From positions 3,906,001 to 3,970,000 of the forward strand of contig CM030333.1 of the NCBI GenBank assembly GCA_017654855.1: 64,000 bases of DNA, in the 5' to 3' direction. Source of the DNA: Podospora anserina (taxonomy: Eukaryota). Both the position numbers and the translations under genes were made by a program. The notes beneath the pieces are model-generated. The model saw nothing but the letters and a program-made list of their open reading frames with translations, was not told the DNA's origin and made no database searches. The first letter of the stretch is position 1. Each line of letters begins with the position of its first letter. Positions 19,164 to 31,058 of the stretch are shown piece after piece.

Positions 19164-21651
19164 CTAAGCCCGCGCCTCCAAGTATTTTGCTGCCTTTTCC
19201 CAAACAGCCTGGTCATTGGCCGAGAGCTCGCTCTGAGGCAACGCCTTGATACCCGCATAAATAGCCTTGAAGAACTCGCAGGCAATCTCGAGGTCTTCCG
19301 GAAAGGCAGTGGCGTAGGGGATATAACTGGAGGGAAAGTTCTTCTTCTTCTTGGCCATCTCGGGGTCGTTGGGATTGATCTCGTCAAAAAACGTCTTGAC
19401 GGCAATGCCGAGGGATACGTCGGGATCGAAATGGAACGGGAGGCTACAACGTCAAAGTCAGTACATTTGGGTGTAGAAATGAGGAGAGATACCCATCCCA
19501 TACCTGTTGCCCAACTCCCAGTTGGCGTCTTTCCGCCGGTCAGCCTGAGCAGCCATGAATGTCGAAGCCAAGATCGCCTCCACCAAGTCACGGTCTGCCG
19601 CCCGCACCTCGGATGCCAACGAACGGAAAGCCAGCAGACTCTTGCTGAGGGGCCCCGTATACCCATAGGATTCATGCCGAAGTTTCAGCAGGCACGCACA
19701 CCTGCTGATCAACAGCAAGCTCAATTGGTCGTCCTCGCTGCCGTGCATGGGTAAGCCGCGCAACTCTTCATGCTTGTTCTTGGCATTTAACAAGTCGAAA
19801 CGAACGAGCTCAAGAGCGACAATGATGGACTCATAAAGGTGTGGTACCTTCCAGTACCTCTTGGCTGTTGGCTGAAGTGCAGTGAGAGCTTGTGATAAGG
19901 CCTTGCCCCAGCTGGTGAGTTCGTGTTTATTGTCAACGTAGCCCCGAATGTGAAGAAACCGCCAGATGGAGAAAGATTTGATGAGGTCAGGGCTCAGATT
20001 CTTCACCTTTTTGTCCTTCTGAGAAAAGGTGGTGGCAACGAACTCTGGCTTCTCAAGCGCCAGAACTTCAGAAAAGATGGATCCGTGGACAAAATCCGGG
20101 AACAACTTCTCGACTACCTCGGCGGACACTCTCCAGCTTTTCCACTGCTCCAGGTAAGGGCCCTGGTTCTTGAAGTCCCACAACTTCCGCTTAAAATCCC
20201 GATCAAACCATACGCCCATGGTGACGGTGCTGTGTAAGAAGGCACGGTGAAGGCGAGCTACCACCAAGCTCAAGGCGGCTTCTTTGATCTGGGGAGTTTG
20301 TTGAGTAACCAGCTTCCTGTACTCAGGCGAGACCGTCCCATCCAGGGTGGGCAAAACCTCCATCGAGGCCGACGTCTGCTTCTTAGAGGCTTCAGCCTGA
20401 GTAAAAGCATGCGTGATGGGGTTCAGAATCCGTGGCCCAATTAGACCTGTGTTCAGGTAATGGAACATCTCGGGCGGAAGAGAGAGGCCCAAATACTCAT
20501 AGTTGTCTTGGGTAAGAGTGTCATAGTTGTGAACGGTTATTTCTCCGTTTTCCTTGATGTAGGTGAAGTGGTCAACAAGCATTCGGGCCTTGCGGTACTT
20601 GTCCAACCAGTTGGGATCCTGTGCTTTGAGGGTATCGGCAAAGGTGATGCAGACCTGCGTCACATCCTTACGAGCGACTCGCAGGATGTTCAAAGCATCA
20701 TTGATGTTGGACGGTTGGTTCTTGATGATGTTGCCGTCTGTAAGGGCAGGAAAGGCCGGTAGAAACGACGTGCCCGCCATGAGCATCAGGTCGACAAAAG
20801 TATGGTGAGTGACGTTGAGGACACTCAACAGATGAGTCTTGGAAACTGCGCGGACGGTTCTAGTTTCCCAGTCGATGCTTCTGATCACGCAGTCATTGAT
20901 GGGGTACATCAGGAGCTCGACAGACCCCATGACACCACCGGCTTGGTCCGAGTCAGTCATATCAAACGAAGCAATCTTTTCACACGACGTGTTAGCAAGA
21001 ACCTTCGGTAGGCATCAGGCAATCCTTAAACTGCTCACCTGAGCTGCAGCGTTGAAGGGCGCCACAAGAAAGTGAAGCTTTCTCTCCTTCAGTATCCCTT
21101 GAAGAAGGCGATAGAAGTTGTGAGGATGAAAGGCATCTAATTCAATTAGCTCTGAGCGAGACATGTCGCCTTCCCTGCGACCCTTGGGTTCAGGTCGATT
21201 TACATACTCGTGTTCTCGCCGAATGACTGAACGGCAGCATCAGCCTGGCCATTGAAGTACTGCTCCCAGGCCCTGTCGGTTTGGGCAATGCCTTCCCGAG
21301 CACGTCTGATGTTGACCTCATCTTGACCCTTGAGATTTTGGCCATCAAAGATAAAGAAAGGGATAACATTGTTGGCCTGCCATTGGTTAAGATCGTTCTC
21401 AATGCGCGACTGGATACCGGTTACGCCCCCGAGGGCCGAGAGGAGGGGTTCGCTGGGCTGTGAATCGAGCTGGAGGTGGAGATAGTAGGTCGCGTCAACT
21501 GCGATGGCGTGGTCCTCGAGCATCGATACAGGATAGCTCCTGAATGAAAGCAGGCAAGCGGTTAGCAAAGGTGCTCGGAGAAGGCGGACGAAATGGAATT
21601 GACCTACGCCACCTGGGAGTTGATGTACGCATCCTCAAGAAGAGCTTCCAT
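19164..21651 (-). CDS. MKT1: Mkt1 homolog (XPG/PIN-like N-terminus, MKT1_N and MKT1_C domains), multi-exon
   Basis: ATG at 21651 (MEALLEDAYINSQ), then HAIAVDATYYL...EPLLSALGG...PFFIFDG, APFNAAAQ, LMAGTSFLP, YLGLSLPPEMFHYLNTGLIGPR, LHIRGYV...LTSWGKAL, GYTGPLSKSLLAF. Segments are joined by GT..AG introns; stop at 19164. Confidence 0.88.
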
Positions 21652-23029
21652 GGCTGATTAGTGAACGGTGCTTTCAAAGTAGAATATATAAGAAAAGAGA
21701 GGTGAAGAGACGGGGATCCGTCGTTGGGTTTGTTGCCGTAGGCGCCGAACACAAAGATACGAGACAGCGAATGGCTGGGGGGGTATTGTCTTGTGTTGCG
21801 TACGGTATGCGATGTGTGCGTGGAACAGCGGTGGTGTCACAGTGGTGGGAGAGCTTGTGATGCGTCACTCCCCGAGCTCGAGGATGCGTAAAGGTAGGGC
21901 AGGTTGTTGTTTCGCAACGATAAGGAAGGTACGGCGTGCGTGGAGAGGTAGGCGCAGAGCTTGGTGGCAGATGGCGGCGGGGTAGGTGTTCGTTTCGTCG
22001 TCGAGAGTAGAGCGCAGAGGGCAGAAAGAGGGCAAGAGCAGTCGAGAGAAAGAAGTCAGATCGTGGACTTACTCGGCATCGTGACGGTGCGGCGATCACA
22101 GCAGCGATCAACAACGAGTCTTGGGGGCAGTATTCGGCGCGGCAACAATGACAGAGGGGGGGGGGGCGTCTATGAGAGGGTCCCACAACTGGCGGCCAAA
22201 TAACCTTTCCCCAAAAGAACCCAAGAGTCGCAAAGCTGGGGTCCCTTTCCTTCGGTTGGGCTGGAGCAACTTCGTAAGAGGCTCTCAACGACAAGATGCC
22301 AGGAACAGACTTAATGGTGGAGCTTCAACCCAAAGCAGAGTCTGGCTGGGCTGACCAGTTAGGTAGATTATGGCTGTGGAATTCGGGTATGATCAAAAAA
22401 TCGTAAAGTGAAGAAGAAGATTAAGGAACGACTCGAGAGTTTGTCAACCACAACCGCAGACCATCATCTGGCCGGAAATCACAAGGAGGGGTCGTTGTTT
22501 TTTCCTTTTCTCGAAAGAGGCGTGAGGCTCAGGAACCAGAAGACGCTTTGAAACCTTGCTCCCTTTTCCGTGTGGCTGATTGCTGCAGATTGACAGGGGC
22601 CCGAGCTCCCTTCAATCAATGGGTGCGCACTGTGTAGACACACTGTGACCCCTGAGATGCCCCCTTTCCATCTAGCTCTCATGGATTCCAACATTGAGGA
22701 TCTGTACTCAGGCATGATTCAAAAATGTATGAACGCAAAATAATAGAAGATACCTTGCCTACTCAGTCAAGGACTGCGCCTCAGCATCAGACTAGGTGTT
22801 GAGACCCAATCCCATTTGCTTACTCACACCCAGCCAACATTTCAAAATATTTTCCAGAAGCCTCGAAGCCTGCAATGGAAGCCTTCTACTTCCAATTTCT
22901 CAGCCTGATAAATCAGTCCAATTGGTTTTGATTTCAACACCCACCATCAAGTTACCTAACCACTCCGGAACGTAACCGTTAGGCGACTCCTCAGTGACTA
23001 AGCCCGACTACCTACTGCTGCAACCTAGG

Positions 23030-24200
23030 AGGCCATATTATTCAACCCCCAAGTTCATGTAATACCAGCCCTTTTTTAATCGCCTACCGTCTTTGTGGCA
23101 AATGTCCCCCGGATTCTCACCGCTTCATTGGCCTTGTCCGCAGCCGGTACTATCTCAGTCAAGACTCACACCCACACACTCAGCCCTACCCGCACACCAG
23201 CCGTCTTCCGCCCTTAAGGCTGACCAACTGCCATATTAGTGCCCTCATATCTTGAGCCCCTAAAAGGCCACCATATACCAACAAGAGTAGAGCTCCACCA
23301 TACCAACCCTCAAAGAAACACATTTGCCTATGACCATCTAGAACCATCTAGACCTCATCAACCCCCAAAGCAGCAAAGTTGCCCAAAAATAACAACCTGC
23401 CGGCCTAGATCTAGACCCGGCCAGCCCGACCCCAACGTCGATCAAGCGACAAGAAAAGAAAAGATTCCCGCGCGGCCAGGACCAGGTCATGAGTATAGGT
23501 GTGTGTGGGGATATATGCGTGGTCGACCGGCCTAGCCGCTGAATCAAGGTCATCAAATGTACGGTTCTTCATTCGACCCACTCGCACAACAAGAATGGAG
23601 TGAGAGCCGTTATTCAGCATCCAGCATGATATCGCCGGATGCCTGATCGAAACCCGCCAAATGGAGATAAGCCCAATGGTGGATGGACCTAGACTTCCAC
23701 GACTTCGTAGATTCAAGACCATTAACGTTGGCTGTGTAGAAGTACTCGCAAGTTGACCACCCAAGCCCTGGAAGCCATGGTATAGGACACTGGTAGCTAC
23801 CCACACACCTACCGGTGACGAGATCCATTATCCGGCATCTATACTAGACAGTCCAGCCTGATATCACAAGGCCCGATGCCTAATGAGCGTCCATCTCATC
23901 TTCCCTAGAGTCGTAACAATGTCGGTGAGTCTAGACTTCTGCAAGTCATTAGTTTCAACATCACAAATGTTGATAGGCATATATTCAGCATAGCAAAGAC
24001 GATCTCTTACTCAGCAACCTCCTTGATATTGCCACATGCTGACCTCAAGTCCCAGTTTACCTCACGAAATCCACCGAACCGACAATGTCGATGACAACGA
24101 CGACGACGACGACGACAGTAGAACGAGCCCAGAGTTCCGCAGCTCGGTTACCACAAAGCCAGTAGAATGAGTCCAGACTCCTGCAACTCCGTGACTCAGG
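23030..24200 (+). pseudogene. Possible decayed gene relic
   Basis: One + frame reads ...SNVRFFIRPTRTTRME*EPLFSIQHDIAGCLIETRQMEISPMVDGPRLPRLRRFKTINVGCVEVLAS*PPKPWKPWYRTL..., protein-like with scattered stops and ending in a (GAC)n acidic run. No family recognised. Confidence 0.2.
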
Positions 24201-27200
24201 GCAACGCTAGACCCTCAACACTTTCGAGACCCTTCAAATCTATGAAACTATTGTTGACTTCGTGATAGGTCGACACATAAGTGAAAAAAAAAGGGGGCAA
24301 TGAAACAGCCTGGCTGCCTAACCCGCGCTCGGCGAGCCGGAATAGGAAGGCAACATAACACAACACAAGATAAACCAAACAAACATACATCTCAACCAAG
24401 AAAGCCTAGCCCACCTCGCCTCTCCTGTCTTCCCCAGACCTCCCACACCCATCTCCACACCCCAAGAAATGTACATACCATAGCCCAGCAAAACGGGAAA
24501 ACAAGGCGTAGGTATCCGCCCTCACCAGCAACATCGCCAGCCTCGGCAGAAGTAGCTAGCAAGCTGAACTCCCCCCGTGAGCCATCCAACCTCGTAGTCA
24601 GCACCCGGTTATGTCATCATCAACTCAGGCAGAAACTCGAACACCCAAGCATCACATCCAATACATCCCATCCCAACCTGCCGGCATCAATACCGCCACA
24701 ACAATCAGTCAGTCACTCCTGATCGACCGGTCCTCCCCAAAAGCCACGAAACCATCCCCTCCGTGTGCTCCATCCGATGACGAAAAAAAACGTGGCAGTG
24801 AAACCATCACTTTTCGGGCCCGTCAAGACACCCGGGCGAATAAGCCTCTGTCAACAGGAAAGCAAATACCGGGCCCGTAAAGGTGCGGTGTGGTGAGTGA
24901 TACAAACTGTAACAACAGCCACGCCAGAGAGTGCAACTCTGGGCTGTCCCGCACCGTAATATCTAGAATGAAAGGACCGATAGACATTACAGTGCAATAT
25001 CCCCAAGGCCAACCAGCTGATCAAGTGTGCAGCTCCCCAGCCTTCCTGGGGAAAAAGCCCTCTTGTTCATCTGTGCTGTTCTCACCGCGCCTTGCACCAA
25101 TACTAGTAAACTGCGCCCTTGATGAATAGGTAAAATGATAGTTGAAAATGTGAAATTTGGATGCTGCACCCTTACGCCAAGAAACTTGTCTCTTCGATTG
25201 ACAGGTACACTTGCGAGATTGATCCCGCCATAACAGCCTCCGATATACACCGCTACGTCCCCTCTCGCAGCGTCGAAAAGGCGGAGAGCCGAGAACACGG
25301 GACGTTGGGGTCCGCGGGGCTCGGCGAGGAGGCCGCATCCTCTTGCATGCTCTCCGGCTTCTACAGCCTTGGCTTTCAGGCCTCCCTTTTCGCATCTCAT
25401 CCTCTCGCAAAGGAAAAACAGATGACTCTTCTTTCGGGAACATGTTCAGCTCAACATGGGTAGAAACAACAACGCTCCTGCGTTACGATGGCTGGTAGGT
25501 AGTGTCATTCCTACCCAAGCACGTGGATGGCAAGTGGAAATACTAGGGAAGCAGCTTTCTGTGTAGTTGTTGGTTGCTCTGTACCACACAGCCTGCCGCT
25601 CCCGAAAAGAACATGAGATGGCATGTCGTCCAACCGTCCAATTGTGTGCCCTTGTTCGCTTGTAAAGAGCCGTCAGAGCACCAGTCTTGGCCCCCACAAC
25701 TCACTTGATCGTAGGGCTGCAGTTGGATGTCGACTCGTTTCAGAACCACCGGACACCGCAGCCGCAAAAGGGAATTTATTCGCAACCTAGAACAAGCTGC
25801 ACTGCAGGTTCGGTCCGAGATGGGAGATGAGTAACACGGTGATATTTTGGTTCGATGCCCGAATCGCCGTCTTGATATCAAGGTAAGCAAGATAGATTTG
25901 GAAGAAGTGCTGATGGTCAATGTTATTCTGAGGCATCTTTATGTGGAAGCCTGGAAAGGCCTAACGCAATGAGGGTATTTGACTTCCGGAGCTCAATGCC
26001 GGTGACCAATCTCCGCGCCAAGCTTCAAACGTTCCCGGGATGACGGGCGGGTAGCCGGGCATTTGGTTCTCTGGGACCGTGCCTCAAGAGAGCCGAGACA
26101 AAATGTCCCGGTAACCAGGGGGGAGGGGGCCATCCATGATCATGGTGCGGGACGAGGGGGGGGCCCGGCCCTCTGCTTGGGGTCCCTCTCGTCTGGATCG
26201 CACGTGGCACCAGGTACCACCATACCGTACCGACCACCACCATCAGTGAAGCAAACCCGCAATAGGCAAACTTATTCACTGTCGCTTAACCCAGGCGGCA
26301 AGGTCACAGAAGAGCCGCGGTCTGTACGACCCGACGAATATGGTGTGGTGTCAACATCAGTACTCCCCCCTAAGTCTGCAGATGGAAATAGTCTGAAACA
26401 GATATGCATCTCGGACATGATCGCAAAAGTCGCAGCCGTGATCAATATTCCCAGAGCGATACCGAGACACCGGAGTAGGTTGAAAAGTGACAGGTTGAGC
26501 AGTGAGATGTCCTCAACAATCATGACCAAAGATTCTTGGCTATTCGGCAATGTATTCCCCGGAAACCCTCCCTGATTGTGCCACTCGGTTGTGGTAGCGG
26601 GGCCTCCACGTGCTGACAGTCAGCAGCTTGGTAACCGCTCGTATAATTCAGCATCTTGATTGCTTCATGACATGAAGTTGTCGCGGTCTGGCGGACTTTG
26701 CTGTTTCCGATCAGGAAACTGACGGCCCGAAAATCTCACCGGAACCAATAGGTCTGGCTGCGGCTGGTATGGTCATTATTCCGTCCGATGGAGTCTCTCT
26801 GCACATTGCGTGGCTGCTAGGTCGGTGTGACTGGCATGCCACACTCGTCTATCCACAGACGAGCTCTAAACACCATTCTTGAGGTTGAACGATGACATGC
26901 TGAGTAACTCGCGTGTCGTCTGTACATACGTTCGCGGGGCAGATGCGGGACCTTACGTAGACGTTCGGTTGCTTGGCGGAGCGTATGGCGGATAACAGAC
27001 GGAAATAAGATATCGGACGACATAGCCCCTTCATGACCCGCCATCATCAGTTCCAATTCAAGAACCATGACTTGGGAATAGCCGTCGCACCACGTAAGTC
27101 TGACGTGCGGCTCGCGACGATGTGGGATATCTGATGGAAGAGCCATGTGCATTCCAAATTCTGTGTAGGTGTAGCCAGGTGCGGTTGTGGCAGATGCGTC

Positions 27201-28267
27201 TCTTGTGACATGTGGTTGGAAGCCCAACACGTGCTGTTGGTACAGCTGCAGATGCTCTGCCGAAAGCTTGCGGATCGTCCGGCACTGGCGATGCGTTCCA
27301 CTGGGTCGGAGACAGACGACAGACGACCGGTACCACCAGAGCACAAGTCCACCACACTTCGCGTACCACTGAGCCGCATCTGCAGGATTCTAGAGCACAC
27401 CAGATATCGGCACGCTGGCTTAAACCGGCAACGACATGCTGGTATTACTCGCGAGGAAGTCGCCGTGTATCGCCGTATGTCGCCGTATAAACCAGTTTGA
27501 AGACGAGCGGGGCATAGAGAATCCGGCGTGCCTGGCAATGTCTCTGTCTGCGTAGTCAGCATGCGACCGAACGACGTCAATGTAAACGGAAAAAGATTGT
27601 GAAGCCTCAGGCAAGGTACCTTTTTTGTCGCAGAGGGCTGCATGCAAGTGGCTCGCGCCAGGTGTAACCCCAGCAAAGCCCACTGGTGCTTACACAGGCC
27701 ACCAAGGCATCCATCCAATTCCATCTTTGGATGCCACTCAGCCCTATGCAAGTGTAGGAAAGTGGCCCAGTGTGCGTATTGACAGGTTTCGAAAAATCCC
27801 ATTCGCCCCCAAAAACGGTTTCGATGTTCGTTCTAATTCCCTGTTTGGTACTTGACTCTCGGCCCTATGCAAAGAGTAGCATCACCAGATGTCCGGATCT
27901 CACGGCTTGGAGGCGCAGATGCATCTCATCGTTGGGCCCAGTCCCGAAACCTGTCGTAACTGCCATGCATTTCGTCCAGCTTGCCTTGGTGCCGTCCAGT
28001 ACCTTTGGCCCATGCCGTGCGAGTCACATCCCCAGGGGGCGTGATATGTACCTTGACAAGGCGTTCCACCAATATCACCCAGTCGTATCACGATGCCTAA
28101 GGCGTGTGGGGAACGTAAGGAAAGTAAGGTCTCTTTTCGCCTTATGTCATCTCGCGGATTTGGGGCCCCCGCGGGGCACTGTCGCCTGCAACTACATGGC
28201 AGTTCAGGAAAGAGGGCGAGATGAAGTTGCATATCTATTCAAGTGGCATTGACATGTCGTTCAAAGT

Positions 28268-28278
28268 TATATATTTAA
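28268..28278 (+). promoter_or_regulatory. TATA-like box of the repeat-peptide gene
   Basis: TATATATTTAA about 200 nt upstream of ATG 28476, followed by a C/A-rich leader typical of fungal 5' UTRs. Confidence 0.5.
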
Positions 28279-28475
28279 GGAACTTCGTGTTCCCAGGTTC
28301 CGGTCCTGTTTTTATCATCAGCATCAGCAACACATCCCATCAACCGCGTCAGCCAGCTCAACTTTTTACTCACAGCATCACCACCAGCAAGCTCTTCCAA
28401 CACAACCTATCAACACCCAAACCATCATCCCTAGCCTCAGCTTTTAAACTTCAACCCATAACCCAAACCTTCGCA

Positions 28476-28815
28476 ATGGCTGCCTTCGCTTCTTTCACCA
28501 CTGAGCCTTGTGTCAACTATGGCCGCTCCGGCTACAACAAGTAAGTCGCCCTCTCGTCTCAACATCTTGGGGTCCCCATAGACTGACACCATGCTTCAGG
28601 GGCAACTCCGAGGATGATGAGGAGAACAAGTTTAGCAACTTTGGCCGCTCGGGATACAACAAGGGGAATGGCGAAGACGAGGAGGAGAAGTTCCGCAACC
28701 ATGGCCGCTCCGGCTACAACAAGTAAGCCTTCCGGCCATCGAGATCAACTTGAAGTCTTCCAACCAGAACTAACCGTTTCACAGGGAGAACGACAAGGAA
28801 GAGGATGACAAATAA
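28476..28815 (+). CDS. 72-aa tandem-repeat peptide (3x N[YFH]GRSGYNK with acidic spacers); candidate peptide/RiPP precursor
   Basis: Exons 28476-28540, 28600-28722, 28785-28815. Intron 28541-28599 is GTAAGT..CTGAC..CAG; intron 28723-28784 is GTAAGC..CTAAC..CAG. Spliced: MAAFASFTTEPCVNYGRSGYNKGNSEDDEENKFSNFGRSGYNKGNGEDEEEKFRNHGRSGYNKENDKEEDDK*. Synonymous codon differences between repeats (TCC/TCG, GGC/GGA) indicate protein-level constraint. Confidence 0.85.
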
Positions 28816-29218
28816 GTGCCTCCGGAAAATTCACAACACCAGACCGGCATTCTCTCCCCTCTTAATAACCAGCTCAACTCTGAAGCCATCGCCAGCTCAC
28901 CGGGGCAAGACTCGCCGACTGTCTTCTGTTTCCTCCTTTGTTTTTCCATTTGTTTTAGAAGATTTCATCCGTCATCACTGACGATACTCCTCATGTACCA
29001 TCAATGCATATAGACGGGCGGCATAAATATCCGGGGTGGCGACCTGATCGCATCCCAAAACCTCAAGAGATGGACCTCACGGTCAATGGCGACAGGCGGT
29101 GGATTTCCTTTGTCGTACACGAAATGGCCGGGACGAATCATGAGCTTCTGGCCCCTCGATGGGGACCTTGTACAACACGGATATTATTATTAGTTAGACT
29201 AGAATTGCATTTGCATAT

Positions 29219-31058
29219 TCATTTTCCAACACAGAATCTGTACCACATTGTCAGTCAATAGTCTCTTCATCACATTGCACAAAAAGGAGCATTACTTTTC
29301 GAAGATCACTCCTAACACTTCTTCGACGTCCCCGGAGTCGCCGCGTCCCGTGATACAGGCAAGCCGGTTGGCGGCAAGTCGCAAGTGCTCCGCCGCGAGT
29401 ACAACGTCGGGTTCTCTTCCGGCCCCGCACGCTTGTGCCTCCGTCATGAAGCCTTCTAGATGCATCTGGCATTCAAAGAGAAGTTGATTTTGTCGTTCAG
29501 TGACACCAAGCAAATGATGCACATCGCCAGGCAATGAGGTGAGCTCTGAGAATGATTGGACCAGTCTCTCAGTGAGGGTATGAACACCACCTGGATCCGT
29601 TAGCCCTGCAGCCGCCGTCGCCGCAGCCTTGCAGGAAATGGTGAGCGGCTCGGCACCTTGGAGACCCTGAACGCTCCCAAGAGCCGAACTTTTAAAACCT
29701 TGGATCAGCGGTTCCAGTGTTTCTCGTTCCACAACATCACTCTTGTTCACCGCAACCAAGCACTGCTGAGCTGCAGCTGCTAATTTCAGCGTCTCCACGT
29801 CATAGCTTATCTGGTGACCGCCTCCTTTTACTGCTTCCACGGAGGCCAAGACGATGACAATGTCCGAATCCATTGCCTTCTGACGTGCTCTGCGGATGCC
29901 CTCCTGCTCGATAGCGCCGATGACTGGGCTCGAGTCCCCGTCAAGATTAGCAATCGACCTGGTCGACTCGGTTCGTATGCCAGCTGTGTCAGCAAACGAA
30001 CAGAGATATCCCCGAATATCAAGATTCGCCTCGATAACGTCGCGGGTAGTTCCCGCTTCCGAGGAAACAATGGAAGCTTCCCGTCCAACAATCTGGTTCA
30101 TCAAAGAGCTCTTCCCGGCATTGGGCGGTCCCAACAGAGCTATCCGGATACCGTTCCGTAGAAGCTCACTCTTTTGGCTGCCAAGCTTGTGCATGTTGAT
30201 TGAATGCAAGATGCCCTCCACTAGCCGTCTGACATTGGTAAGCAGCTCGGTCGGGGATTCGTCAAAGTGCTGATCTTCTGAGAAGTCAATGAGTGCCTCG
30301 ATCTCACCCCGAGCCAGCAAAAGTTCCTCTCGCCAGCGTTCGTATGTTTTGCCCAAAACACCCGAGTTGCCCTGCACGGCCACGCGTCGTTGCTGTTCTG
30401 TCACGGCGTCAAGAGTGTCGCCCAGTGACTCCACCTGTGCAAGATCGAGCCTCCCATTCAGGAATGCACGTCTCGTGAATTCGCCTGGTTCAGCATATCG
30501 AACTTTGCCCGTGGTCGAGCACTTTGGAATCGCCGCAAGCACAGCCTTGATCGTAGCAGAGCCTCCATGGACGTGCAATTCAAGCACATCTTCGCCAGTC
30601 ACGGTCTTGGGCCCAGGGAAGTAGAGAATGAGGGAATCCGAGTCCAGGATATTGCCATTGGGCAGATTGGCAGAAGCTGGGTCAAGCAACGTCCTCACAC
30701 CAGCATATCTGGGTTTCGGTGGAGGTTTCGTTGGGCATAGTGCTTTGTAAACCTAATCACATGTTAATGGAGAACTTATCACTATACTCCACGATGGATA
30801 ATGTGTTACGCTTAAAGAACCTGGGCCAGAAATGCGGATAACGGCTATGCCCGCCTTTCCCGCACCCGATGACAAGGCATATATGGTGTCGTCGTTCTCA
30901 TTGAAGAGCATGTCGTCAGTTCTTGGCGTAGCATAACCAAACTGCCGCATGCTGGGTTTATGACATGACAGCCATGGTTGAGGTTGTTGTTGAGCGGGCG
31001 CAACAGGCAATGCCCACGGCCGTGCTGTGAGTGCTCTCTTCAACACATAGCGAAACAT
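29219..31058 (-). CDS. MSS1: Mitochondrial tRNA modification GTPase Mss1/MnmE (TrmE)
   Basis: Arg-rich presequence MFRYVLKRALTAR, DTIYALSSGAGKAGIAVIRISGP, FPGPKTVTGEDVLELHVHG, AEPGEFTRRAFLNGRLDL, GPPNAGKSS, GTTRD, DTAG, NKSD. The C-terminal FCVGK* is on a short last exon after an intron. Confidence 0.95.

What the first reader, a model, noticed from the sequence alone, without database searches (positions are those of the whole stretch)
28476..28815. Hidden 3-exon micro-gene encoding a signal-less tandem-core peptide (N[YFH]GRSGYNK x3): candidate new fungal peptide/RiPP system
Seen: the ORF track splits this gene into fragments, but canonical splicing gives a 72-aa product. It has a 13-aa leader (MAAFASFTTEPCV), three cores NYGRSGYNK / NFGRSGYNK / NHGRSGYNK with invariant GRSGYN and one variable aromatic position, and acidic spacers (GNSEDDEENKFS, GNGEDEEEKFR, ENDKEEDDK). 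It has a TATA box, and the repeats differ at synonymous sites. Established: repeated cores with acidic spacers are the architecture of fungal dikaritin/KEP precursors (e.g. UstA), but those carry a signal peptide and KR Kex2 sites and usually cluster with DUF3328 oxidases. None of these is present here; there are only single Lys residues around the cores. Inference: a cytosolic multi-core precursor processed by unlinked enzymes (Lys-directed cleavage, possible aromatic-Tyr crosslink or cyclisation), i.e. a possibly undescribed peptide class. I do not recognise the family.
Basis: partly seen in the sequence, partly recalled or inferred. Interest (0 to 1): 0.88.

Follow-up and report, generated by a model that had tools for sequence, protein, structure and literature searches.

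The report
Conserved fungal micro-protein with GRSGYN repeats
This is a real, spliced 72-residue gene from a widespread but unstudied family of tiny acidic fungal proteins that repeat one unchanging six-residue motif, and nothing yet shows that it is cut up into natural-product peptides.

Summary
Exons 28476-28540, 28600-22722 read as 28600-28722, and 28785-28815 join through two canonical introns into a 72-aa protein with three GRSGYN cores. Both junctions occur in contigs of RNA-like public runs and not in a DNA run.

The gene is not an orphan. A profile search found 281 protein clusters, all named 'hypothetical' and none with a Pfam domain. They include Neurospora crassa NCU04148 and members in Sordaria, Colletotrichum, Fusarium, Verticillium, Xylariales and Diaporthales.

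Among 138 distinct relatives, 429 of 442 cores are exactly GRSGYN. The codons vary freely at synonymous sites. The stretch from the start to the first core Gly is 15 aa in 96 of 138.

No signal-peptide-like hydrophobic run was found, and no conserved Kex2 site. No tailoring enzyme appeared among 30 window ORFs. Gene order with MnmE/MSS1 and Mak16 is kept in 3 of 3 long loci.

My best reading (0.45) is an intact, disordered cytosolic protein that acts through a multivalent short motif. A processed multi-core peptide precursor remains possible (0.25). I found no publication on the family.

The parts
28268..28278 (+). TATA-like element about 200 nt upstream of the start codon
   Evidence: Read directly. 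TATA-like elements lie at a similar distance (about 170-185 nt) upstream of the homologues in L001 and L012. Not tested functionally.
28300..28475 (+). C/A-rich, G-poor 5' leader; start context has A at -3 and G at +4
   Evidence: Composition A53 C69 G15 T39; context. L001 and L012 have similar CA-rich leaders. The true transcription start is not mapped.
28476..28540 (+). Exon 1: Met, leader and first core (15 residues before the core's Gly)
   Evidence: The joint 28540->28600 is seen in an RNA-like contig of run X5.
28541..28599 (+). Intron 1, 59 nt, GTAAGT..CTGAC..CAG, phase 2 in the Lys codon after GYN
   Evidence: The same intron position occurs in L005 and L010-L012. If retained, TAA follows GYNK at once.
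28600..28722 (+). Exon 2: spacer 1, core 2, spacer 2, core 3
   Evidence: This exon alone retrieves the family: 28 hits, best E 9.9e-15. Two natural variants, G46D and E51D, both lie in spacer 2.
28723..28784 (+). Intron 2, 62 nt, GTAAGC..CTAAC..CAG, same phase as intron 1
   Evidence: The joint 28722->28785 is in 2 of 3 RNA-like runs, and a retained form is also in 2 of 3.
28785..28815 (+). Exon 3: acidic C-terminal tail and TAA stop
28521..28538 (+). Core 1 (GRSGYN codons)
   Evidence: pattern match 28521-28541 includes the Lys codon
28643..28660 (+). Core 2 (GRSGYN codons, two synonymous differences from cores 1 and 3)
28703..28720 (+). Core 3 (GRSGYN codons)
28306..28373 (-). Intron of a minus-strand (antisense) transcript that overlaps the micro-gene's 5' leader
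   Evidence: Joint 28304->28373 with CT..AC ends in run X7, plus an 8-letter loose end in X4. On the minus strand it reads GTGAGT..CTGAC..ACAG.

Best explanation
SHOWN. The locus is a real protein-coding micro-gene of 72 aa (8.2 kDa, pI 4.7, net charge -6). It belongs to a conserved, uncharacterised family of Sordariomycete proteins, the family of Neurospora crassa NCU04148. Family members have a leader of about 15 aa beginning M-A-[A/G]-F. They carry 2-4 copies of the almost invariant hexapeptide G-R-S-G-Y-N. Each core is usually followed by Lys and an acidic cluster. Selection acts on the amino-acid sequence of the core. The spacers keep their composition but not their sequence.

INFERRED. 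The protein works intact in the cytosol or nucleus as an intrinsically disordered chain. The repeated hexapeptides act as short linear motifs that dock several times over into one conserved cellular partner. That partner could be a binding domain or an enzyme that modifies the Arg, Ser or Tyr. The polyanionic linkers keep the chain extended and soluble. On this reading the protein is a stoichiometric regulator, such as a sponge, inhibitor or scaffold, and not a source of excised peptides. The partner is unknown.
For: 1. Reality and coding. The splice joints are exactly as predicted in RNA-like contigs. 30 cores in 10 loci use all four Gly codons, five Arg codons and both Ser codon families, while the residues stay fixed.

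2. Breadth. 28 representatives were found with exon 2 alone, and 281 clusters with a profile. Named members span Sordariales, Xylariales, Glomerellales, Hypocreales, Diaporthales and one Leotiomycete.

3. Invariance. 429 of 442 cores are GRSGYN and 11 are GRGGYN. Flanks vary: position -1 is F, Y, K, Q, S, R or H. One metagenomic member has GRDGYN in 2 of 3 cores. A fixed core with tolerated changes at Ser is what a docking or phospho-regulated motif would show.

4. Housekeeping setting. The order micro-gene / convergent MnmE(MSS1) / Mak16 is kept in the window, L001 and L012. All Pfam-recognisable products among 30 window ORFs are housekeeping.

5. No secretory features. The longest hydrophobic run in the leader is 4 or fewer in 122 of 138. 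73 of 138 leaders carry a charged residue.

6. No conserved cleavage site. A dibasic pair lies within 5 aa upstream of only 66 of 304 later cores, and there is none in the window protein.

7. Disorder. AlphaFold2 on a 10-sequence alignment of relatives gave mean pLDDT 53 and no secondary structure. GRAVY is -1.83.

8. No fused form. All 28 hits in a length-unrestricted scan of 1.84 billion representatives are 176 aa or shorter.
Against:
- A six-residue block containing two Gly that stays identical across whole orders is stricter than most short linear motifs.
- Several features also fit a peptide precursor: variable core number (2, 3 or 4 cores in 8, 94 and 36 of 138), a leader of fixed length (15 aa in 96 of 138), 28 of 138 proteins ending exactly at ...GYN, and spacers more alike within a protein than between proteins (0.45 against 0.31).
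- The absence of a signal peptide rests on a heuristic, not SignalP.
- The AlphaFold alignment was shallow.
- The 138 sequences are phylogenetically related, so the counts are not independent events.
- Only the best 120 of the 281 hits were seen.
Confidence: 0.45

Rival explanations
1. Multi-core peptide precursor. The protein is cut around each GRSGYN unit. One possibility is cleavage after Asn, giving the same C-terminus that 28 relatives have naturally. The peptides may then be modified by unlinked enzymes. They would act as a conserved signal or cofactor-like molecule, leaving the cell by a non-classical route or staying inside.
For: - The architecture is leader, repeated identical cores and acidic spacers.
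- Core number varies between species: 2-4.
- 28 of 138 relatives end exactly at ...GYN, confirmed at DNA level in L001 where TAA follows AAT.
- The leader length is fixed at 15 aa in 96 of 138, with an alternating hydrophobic/polar pattern.
- Xylariales members often have KR or KK before the core.
- Published surveys for repeat precursors filtered on SignalP first and so would have missed this family (passages of PMC7329392).
Against: - No signal-peptide-like leader.
- Dibasic sites precede only 66 of 304 later cores and are absent in the window protein.
- Residues at -1 and +1 of the core are not fixed, so no conserved cleavage site is evident.
- No tailoring enzyme, protease of a RiPP type or transporter lies next to the gene in the window, L001 or L012.
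- The gene sits in a conserved housekeeping block and looks vertically inherited, unlike the patchy distribution usual for secondary-metabolite genes (established knowledge).
- In known multi-core RiPP precursors the cores usually vary more than the flanking recognition sites (established knowledge). Here it is the reverse.
Confidence: 0.25
2. Hydrophilin-type protectant, analogous to dehydrin or LEA proteins. This would be an abundant disordered protein made in spores or under desiccation, osmotic or cold stress. It would act by bulk physico-chemical effects such as water or ion retention, shielding of proteins and membranes, or weak cation binding by the acidic clusters. It would have no specific partner.
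For: - It meets the compositional hydrophilin criteria as I recall them (Gly above 6 %, hydrophilicity index above 1): Gly 12.5 %, GRAVY -1.83.
- It is predicted to be disordered.
- Short conserved segments repeated in a charged, disordered chain are the pattern of plant dehydrins and LEA proteins (established knowledge).
- The stretch after the core (N-K-D-G-D...) weakly resembles the start of an EF-hand loop in a lanthanum-binding protein, but at E = 6, which is not significant.
Against: - Near-absolute identity of a hexapeptide is more than a bulk effect should require.
- The window protein lacks the D-G-D stretch after its cores, so the cation-loop resemblance is not a family constant.
- I could see no expression data linking the gene to stress or spores. 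The only paper naming NCU04148 lists it as down-regulated in a mus-52 mutant (passage of PMC5905970).
Confidence: 0.2
3. Not a functional protein gene. The transcripts belong to a non-coding or antisense unit and the ORF is incidental.
For: A spliced minus-strand transcript overlaps the locus, with its intron at 28306-28373. RNA-like contigs of 4.1-4.6 kb run from the gene far into an upstream region without recognisable ORFs.
Against: - Two plus-strand GT..AG joints match the predicted reading frame exactly.
- The ORF, its start and its motif are kept in hundreds of taxa, with free synonymous change.
- DNA similarity to relatives is confined to the coding part.
Confidence: 0.03

Closest known systems
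Kex2-processed repeat proteins (KEPs) and ustiloxin-type (dikaritin) precursors such as UstA
   Same: Small proteins made of a short N-terminal segment followed by several near-identical short cores separated by spacers. Core number differs between species.
   Different: KEPs are defined by an ER signal peptide and by Kex2 sites between repeats (passages of PMC7329392). Dikaritin genes lie beside DUF3328 genes. Here there is no signal-peptide-like leader and no dibasic site in this protein, with dibasic pairs before 66 of 304 later cores in the family. No DUF3328 gene was found nearby. The core is fixed across orders rather than differing from species to species.
Alpha-factor-like pheromone precursors of ascomycetes (e.g. 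Ccg-4 of N. crassa)
   Same: Repeated conserved peptide units in one small precursor. The peptide is conserved over a wide taxonomic range.
   Different: Those are secreted KEPs with a signal peptide and KR sites (passage of PMC7329392). This family has neither.
Plant dehydrins and LEA-type hydrophilins
   Same: Highly hydrophilic, Gly-rich, disordered proteins with short, strongly conserved segments repeated a variable number of times between charged stretches (recalled knowledge; composition).
   Different: There is no sequence relation: Pfam gave only noise at E of 3.5 or more. The conserved unit here is only 6 residues and shows no predicted amphipathic helix. Stress regulation is unknown.
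Cytosolic fungal RiPP precursors (amatoxin MSDIN family, borosins)
   Same: They show that fungal RiPP precursors can lack a signal peptide and can be processed by enzymes not encoded next to them (recalled knowledge).
   Different: MSDIN precursors have one core flanked by Pro. Borosin cores are fused to or paired with a methyltransferase. Here the cores are multiple, no Pro flanks them, and no fused form exists among hits of any length.

Membership tests
NCU04148-type micro-protein family (uncharacterised; defined here) | Two or more GR[SG]GYN cores | tested here: met
   Three cores in the window protein. All 141 fetched relatives have at least 2.
NCU04148-type micro-protein family (uncharacterised; defined here) | Start M-A-[A/G]-F with 15 residues before the first core's Gly | tested here: met
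   The window protein has 15 residues beginning M-A-A-F. 96 of 138 relatives have 15.
NCU04148-type micro-protein family (uncharacterised; defined here) | Significant sequence similarity to members | tested here: met
   Exon 2 alone against 1.84 billion representatives: best E 9.9e-15 to the Neurospora cluster.
NCU04148-type micro-protein family (uncharacterised; defined here) | Position next to a convergent MnmE/MSS1 gene followed by Mak16 | tested here: met
   Window, L001 and L012: 3 of 3 loci long enough to tell.
KEP / ustiloxin-type precursor | ER signal peptide | tested here: not met
   Heuristic only. The window leader has no hydrophobic run longer than 4 and contains Glu. 122 of 138 relatives have runs of 4 or fewer. 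SignalP was not available.
KEP / ustiloxin-type precursor | Repeats separated by Kex2 (KR-type) sites | tested here: not met
   No dibasic pair in the window protein. 66 of 304 later cores in the family have one within 5 aa upstream.
Dikaritin RiPP cluster | DUF3328 (UstYa-type) gene beside the precursor gene | tested here: not met
   0 of 30 window ORFs and 0 of 10 ORFs of L001 and L012. Only ORFs of about 145 aa or more were scanned, unspliced.
Borosin | Core fused to, or encoded beside, an alpha-N-methyltransferase | tested here: not met
   All 28 hits in the scan without length limits are 176 aa or shorter. No methyltransferase was found among the scanned neighbours.
Amatoxin/MSDIN | Single core bounded by Pro residues for prolyl oligopeptidase (recalled definition) | tested here: not met
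   Cores are multiple. Pro is not among the common residues at -1 or +1.
Any RiPP | Proteolytic release and post-translational modification of the core | not testable with these tools
   Needs peptidomics or tagged-protein work.
Hydrophilin (compositional class; recalled criteria) | Gly above 6 % and hydrophilicity index above 1 | tested here: met
   Gly 12.5 %, GRAVY -1.83.
Hydrophilin (compositional class; recalled criteria) | Accumulation under water deficit | not tested
   No usable expression data. Run metadata are coded, and supplements of papers were closed.

The most novel reading that the evidence does not exclude
The family is the cytosolic multi-core precursor of one peptide, built on GRSGYN and ending in a free C-terminal Asn, that is shared by essentially all Sordariomycetes. 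Unlinked enzymes would release it, and it would serve as a conserved signal or cofactor-like molecule. That would be a fungal peptide class outside the four recognised RiPP classes. Signal-peptide-based surveys could not have seen it.
Probability: 0.2. Interest if true: 0.9.

Novelty: new variant of a known kind. Interest (0 to 1): 0.6.

Why it matters
This family of proteins of about 70 residues is present in model and pathogenic fungi, including Neurospora, Sordaria, Fusarium, Colletotrichum and Verticillium. It keeps a hexapeptide unchanged across whole orders, yet it has no Pfam model, and I found no paper on it.

Selection this strict on so small a unit implies a specific and probably important partner or product. 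The question is cheap to settle in Neurospora with a knock-out, a tagged protein, peptidomics and a peptide pull-down.

If the protein is processed, it opens a class of signal-less multi-core fungal peptides. If it is not, it adds a clean example of a multivalent short-motif micro-protein. It also shows that repeat-precursor surveys filtered on signal peptides have a blind spot.

Tried and rejected
- Pfam on exon 2 gave only noise, E of 3.5 or more.
- Word-indexed homologue search with exon 2 found nothing at near lengths or longer lengths. The exhaustive HMMER scan was needed.
- No whole genome is held for this window, so paralogues and unlinked enzymes could not be sought.
- The look-up of sequencing runs listed no holder on record as RNA. 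The 'RNA?' label is the tool's guess.
- Parts of the stretch without cover in run X4, and contig depths, were not used as evidence.
- The protein atlas gave one lead under 0.9: a 76-aa 'hypothetical protein' cluster of 195 members, Ascomycota, scoring 0.86 and 0.87. It adds nothing beyond the HMMER hits.
It worked with the narrower alignment A2.
- The PDB profile search gave one non-significant hit, E = 6.
- Rfam on 21600-29400 found nothing.
- blastn of 21.6-29.3 kb against 11 of the 12 metagenome loci (L003 left out) found similarity only inside the coding part, so no conserved upstream element was found at that distance.
- Paper searches returned nothing for the motif GRSGYN, SMAC_04439 or six other locus tags. 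NCU04148 appears in 1 paper with one uninformative mention.
- EF-hand or Ca-loop reading of N-K-D-G-D: rejected as a family feature, because the window protein lacks it.
- N-terminally extended proteins were rejected as artefacts. These are the upstream in-frame ATGs at 28221 and 28254 and the long database models such as P0004-P0011. The extensions are unrelated to each other, and conservation starts at the M-A-[A/G]-F Met.

Full report
1. THE OBSERVATION

The plus strand between 28476 and 28815 holds three open segments. They join through two introns with textbook fungal signals (GTAAGT..CTGAC..CAG, 59 nt; GTAAGC..CTAAC..CAG, 62 nt). The result is a 219-nt reading frame of 72 codons.

Both introns interrupt the Lys codon that follows G-Y-N, in the same phase. 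If either intron is left in, a TAA follows that Lys at once.

The degenerate DNA pattern for GRSGYNK occurs three times in the window, all here, and never in 100 shuffles. Core 2 differs from cores 1 and 3 at two synonymous sites.

A TATA-like element lies about 200 nt upstream. The leader is C/A-rich, and the ATG has A at -3 and G at +4.

2. TRANSCRIPTS

Twenty public runs hold this stretch. Six have about 36-37 million letters of contigs and all sampled words, which is genome-like. Fourteen have 16-29 million letters and 0.67-0.92 of the words. The tool guesses these fourteen are RNA; none is on record as RNA.

I laid three of the fourteen, from three studies, plus one genome-like run on 27900-29400.
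- The joint 28540->28600 (GT..AG) is in 1 of the 3.
- The joint 28722->28785 (GT..AG) is in 2 of the 3, on a 59-nt contig with 29 letters on the shorter side.
- Neither joint is in the genome-like run.

As a control, the joint 29237->29296 (CT..AC) is in 3 of 3 RNA-like runs. It removes an intron of the convergent MnmE/MSS1 gene and is needed to give that protein a C-terminal F-C-V-G-K. I recall the C-x-G-K ending as the conserved end of MnmE proteins. So these runs do hold spliced RNA.

Points against a simple picture:
- An intron-2-retained contig is present in 2 of 3 runs.
- In run X7 the contig over exon 1 to exon 2 keeps intron 1.
- A fourth joint, 28304->28373, has CT..AC ends. On the minus strand it reads as a good intron, GTGAGT..CTGAC..ACAG.

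The locus is therefore also crossed by a spliced antisense transcript. Contigs cannot give strand, ends or level, so I cannot say how abundant the sense mRNA is.

3. RELATIVES

Exon 2, given as an unaltered window reference, found nothing in Pfam or in the word-indexed protein search at near or longer lengths. An exhaustive HMMER scan of 1.84 billion representatives gave 28 hits at E of 0.001 or better, the best at 9.9e-15.

A profile of 18 of these hits then found 281 clusters at E of 0.001 or better, of which the best 120 were shown. All named ones are 'hypothetical' or 'uncharacterized'. One is evidently mislabelled 'Protein MAK16, partial'. None has a precomputed Pfam domain.

Named members include N. 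crassa NCU04148 and Sordaria macrospora SMAC_04439. Others come from Lasiosphaeria, Colletotrichum, Verticillium, Plectosphaerella, Fusarium, Clonostachys, Stachybotrys, Diaporthe, Cytospora, many Xylariales, Microdochium, Pestalotiopsis and one Leotiomycete.

4. ANATOMY OF THE FAMILY

All 141 proteins fetched have at least two cores. After trimming unrelated N-terminal extensions and removing duplicates, 138 remain. These sequences are related, so the counts below are not independent events.
- Cores: 442 in total. 429 are GRSGYN, 11 are GRGGYN and 2 are other.
- Core number: 2, 3 or 4 cores in 8, 94 and 36 proteins.
- Before the core: the first core always follows an aromatic or similar residue (Y 70, F 58). 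Later cores follow F, K, Q, S, Y, H or R.
- After the core: K in 339 of 442, then usually D-G-D-D-[D/E]. Diaporthales have S-K-P-N-G-G-D-D. Fusarium has G-P or E-P followed by acids.
- C-terminus: 28 proteins end exactly at G-Y-N, and 9 end at G-Y-N-K. The latter are what an unspliced last intron would give.
- Leader: the distance from Met to the first core Gly is 15 residues in 96 of 138, as in the window protein. The pattern is M-A-[A/G]-F-T-[L/F]-x-F-x-P.
- Spacers are more alike within a protein (0.45) than between proteins (0.31), as expected if repeat units are homogenised.
- Median length is 72 aa and median net charge is -4.

5. DNA OF RELATIVES

Twelve metagenome loci encode relatives.
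- L001 is intronless, and TAA directly follows the last A-A-T (Asn) codon, so a C-terminal core is genuine.
- L005 and L010-L012 have an intron at the same place as the window's intron 1.
- L006 has GRDGYN in 2 of 3 cores.

I counted 30 cores from 10 loci, leaving out L003, L010 and L011 as near-duplicates. The two Gly positions together use all four Gly codons. Arg uses five codons. Ser uses TCN and AGC. Tyr and Asn each use both of their codons. Selection is therefore on the peptide and not on the DNA or RNA.

DNA similarity between the window and these loci is confined to the coding part.

6. SURROUNDINGS

Within the window the recognisable products are housekeeping (30 ORFs scanned, unspliced, about 145 aa or more):
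- M1 aminopeptidase, kinesin-3, MKT1
- the micro-gene
- MnmE/MSS1 (convergent), Mak16, Mso1, a TBC RabGAP
- DNA polymerase delta, GET4, GCN2, Cut12, a ubiquitin hydrolase

No DUF3328, tyrosinase, P450, methyltransferase, prolyl oligopeptidase or transporter was seen.

The order micro-gene, convergent MnmE, Mak16 recurs in L001 and L012, the only two loci long enough to tell. MKT1 lies upstream in L012, as in the window.

Between MKT1 and the micro-gene, about 22.4-28.4 kb, there is no ORF with a Pfam match (4 ORFs tested) and no Rfam family. RNA-like contigs of 4.1-4.6 kb nevertheless extend from the gene into this region.

7. WHAT IT IS NOT

KEPs and ustiloxin-type precursors are defined by an ER signal peptide and by repeats separated by Kex2 sites. 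The published survey selected with SignalP first (passages of PMC7329392). Here:
- The longest run of hydrophobic residues in the leader is 4 or fewer in 122 of 138, and 7 in only 1.
- 73 of 138 leaders contain a charged residue.
- The window protein has no dibasic pair.
- Only 66 of 304 later cores have a dibasic pair within 5 residues upstream.

This is a heuristic. SignalP and DeepLoc were not available. No fused form exists among hits of any length, which argues against a borosin-like arrangement.

8. HOW IT MOST LIKELY WORKS

Shown: this is a real, spliced, selected coding gene of a broad, vertically inherited family. It is highly hydrophilic (GRAVY -1.83, Gly 12.5 %, pI 4.7). AlphaFold2 on a relative with a 10-sequence alignment gave mean pLDDT 53 and no secondary structure.

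Inferred: the protein acts intact, and the hexapeptides are multivalent docking or modification motifs held apart by polyanionic linkers. I prefer this reading (0.45) for three reasons:
- The gene behaves like a core cellular gene, with conserved housekeeping synteny and a class-wide fixed motif.
- No cleavage site is conserved on either side of the core.
- The one tolerated position, Ser to Gly or Asp, is what a regulated motif would show.

The precursor reading (0.25) keeps real support. That support is the fixed leader length, the variable core number, and above all the 28 proteins that end exactly at the core. Unlinked enzymes are known for other fungal RiPPs (recalled).

A bulk protectant role of hydrophilin type (0.2) fits the composition but not the strictness of the motif.

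A non-coding reading (0.03) is contradicted by the codon evidence.

9. LITERATURE

- The motif string appears in 0 papers.
- NCU04148 appears in 1 paper. I read the passage only: it is listed among genes down-regulated in a mus-52 mutant (PMC5905970).
- SMAC_04439 and six other locus tags appear in 0 papers.
- For KEP and dikaritin definitions I read passages of PMC7329392. For the other papers I saw only search listings and the starts of abstracts.
- Supplementary tables were closed and may hold expression values for orthologues.

10. VERDICT

The gene and its unusual architecture are real and belong to an unstudied, widely conserved family. 'RiPP precursor' is one of several open readings and not the most likely one.

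Novelty: a new variant of a known kind, namely a repeat-bearing micro-protein or multi-core precursor without secretory or Kex2 features.

Interest: 0.6.

Noticed in passing
window 22400-28400 (and L001 1-10000, L012 5341-10000): About 6 kb upstream of the micro-gene has no ORF with a Pfam match (4 ORFs tested) and no Rfam family. RNA-like contigs of 4.1-4.6 kb nevertheless run through it. L001 has only one ORF of 150 aa or more in the 10 kb upstream, and L012 has none that overlaps no MKT1 part in 5.3-7.5 kb. A long transcribed, ORF-poor upstream region may be a conserved trait of the locus.
   Followed up: partly
window 28306-28373, minus strand: A canonical minus-strand intron (GTGAGT..CTGAC..ACAG) is spliced out in run X7, with a hint in X4. 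It lies inside the micro-gene's 5' leader, so a spliced antisense transcript crosses the gene. This may be read-through from the convergent MnmE/MSS1 gene.
   Followed up: partly
window 28541-28543 and 28723-28725: Retaining either plus-strand intron places TAA directly after G-Y-N-K. That gives a 22-aa one-core form or a 63-aa three-core form without the acidic tail. Databases hold 63-aa forms ending G-Y-N-K from Neurospora relatives and from the nearest relative, P0140. An intron-2-retained contig occurs in 2 of 3 RNA-like runs.
   Followed up: partly
window 28671 and 28687: The strain behind the three RNA-like runs differs from the window at G46D and E51D, both in spacer 2. A third difference, at 28816, is just past the stop. 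No core is changed.
   Followed up: yes
window 29190-29296, minus strand: The MnmE/MSS1 gene has a last intron at 29238-29295. Its final five codons (F-C-V-G-K, then stop) lie on a tiny terminal coding segment. An unspliced reading ends the protein early at ...F-E-K.
   Followed up: yes
window 28221 and 28254; proteins P0004-P0011 and others: The CA-rich leader is open in frame, so upstream ATGs give long N-terminal extensions. Many database gene models of relatives carry such extensions. They are mutually unrelated and look like start-site mis-calls.
   Followed up: yes
protein P0028: A Pestalotiopsis member of the family is named 'Protein MAK16, partial' in its source. This is probably a label carried over from the neighbouring gene, and it fits the conserved gene order.
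   Followed up: no
L006 682-855: One metagenomic relative has GRDGYN in two of its three cores. This is a Ser-to-Asp change at the only variable core position.
   Followed up: no
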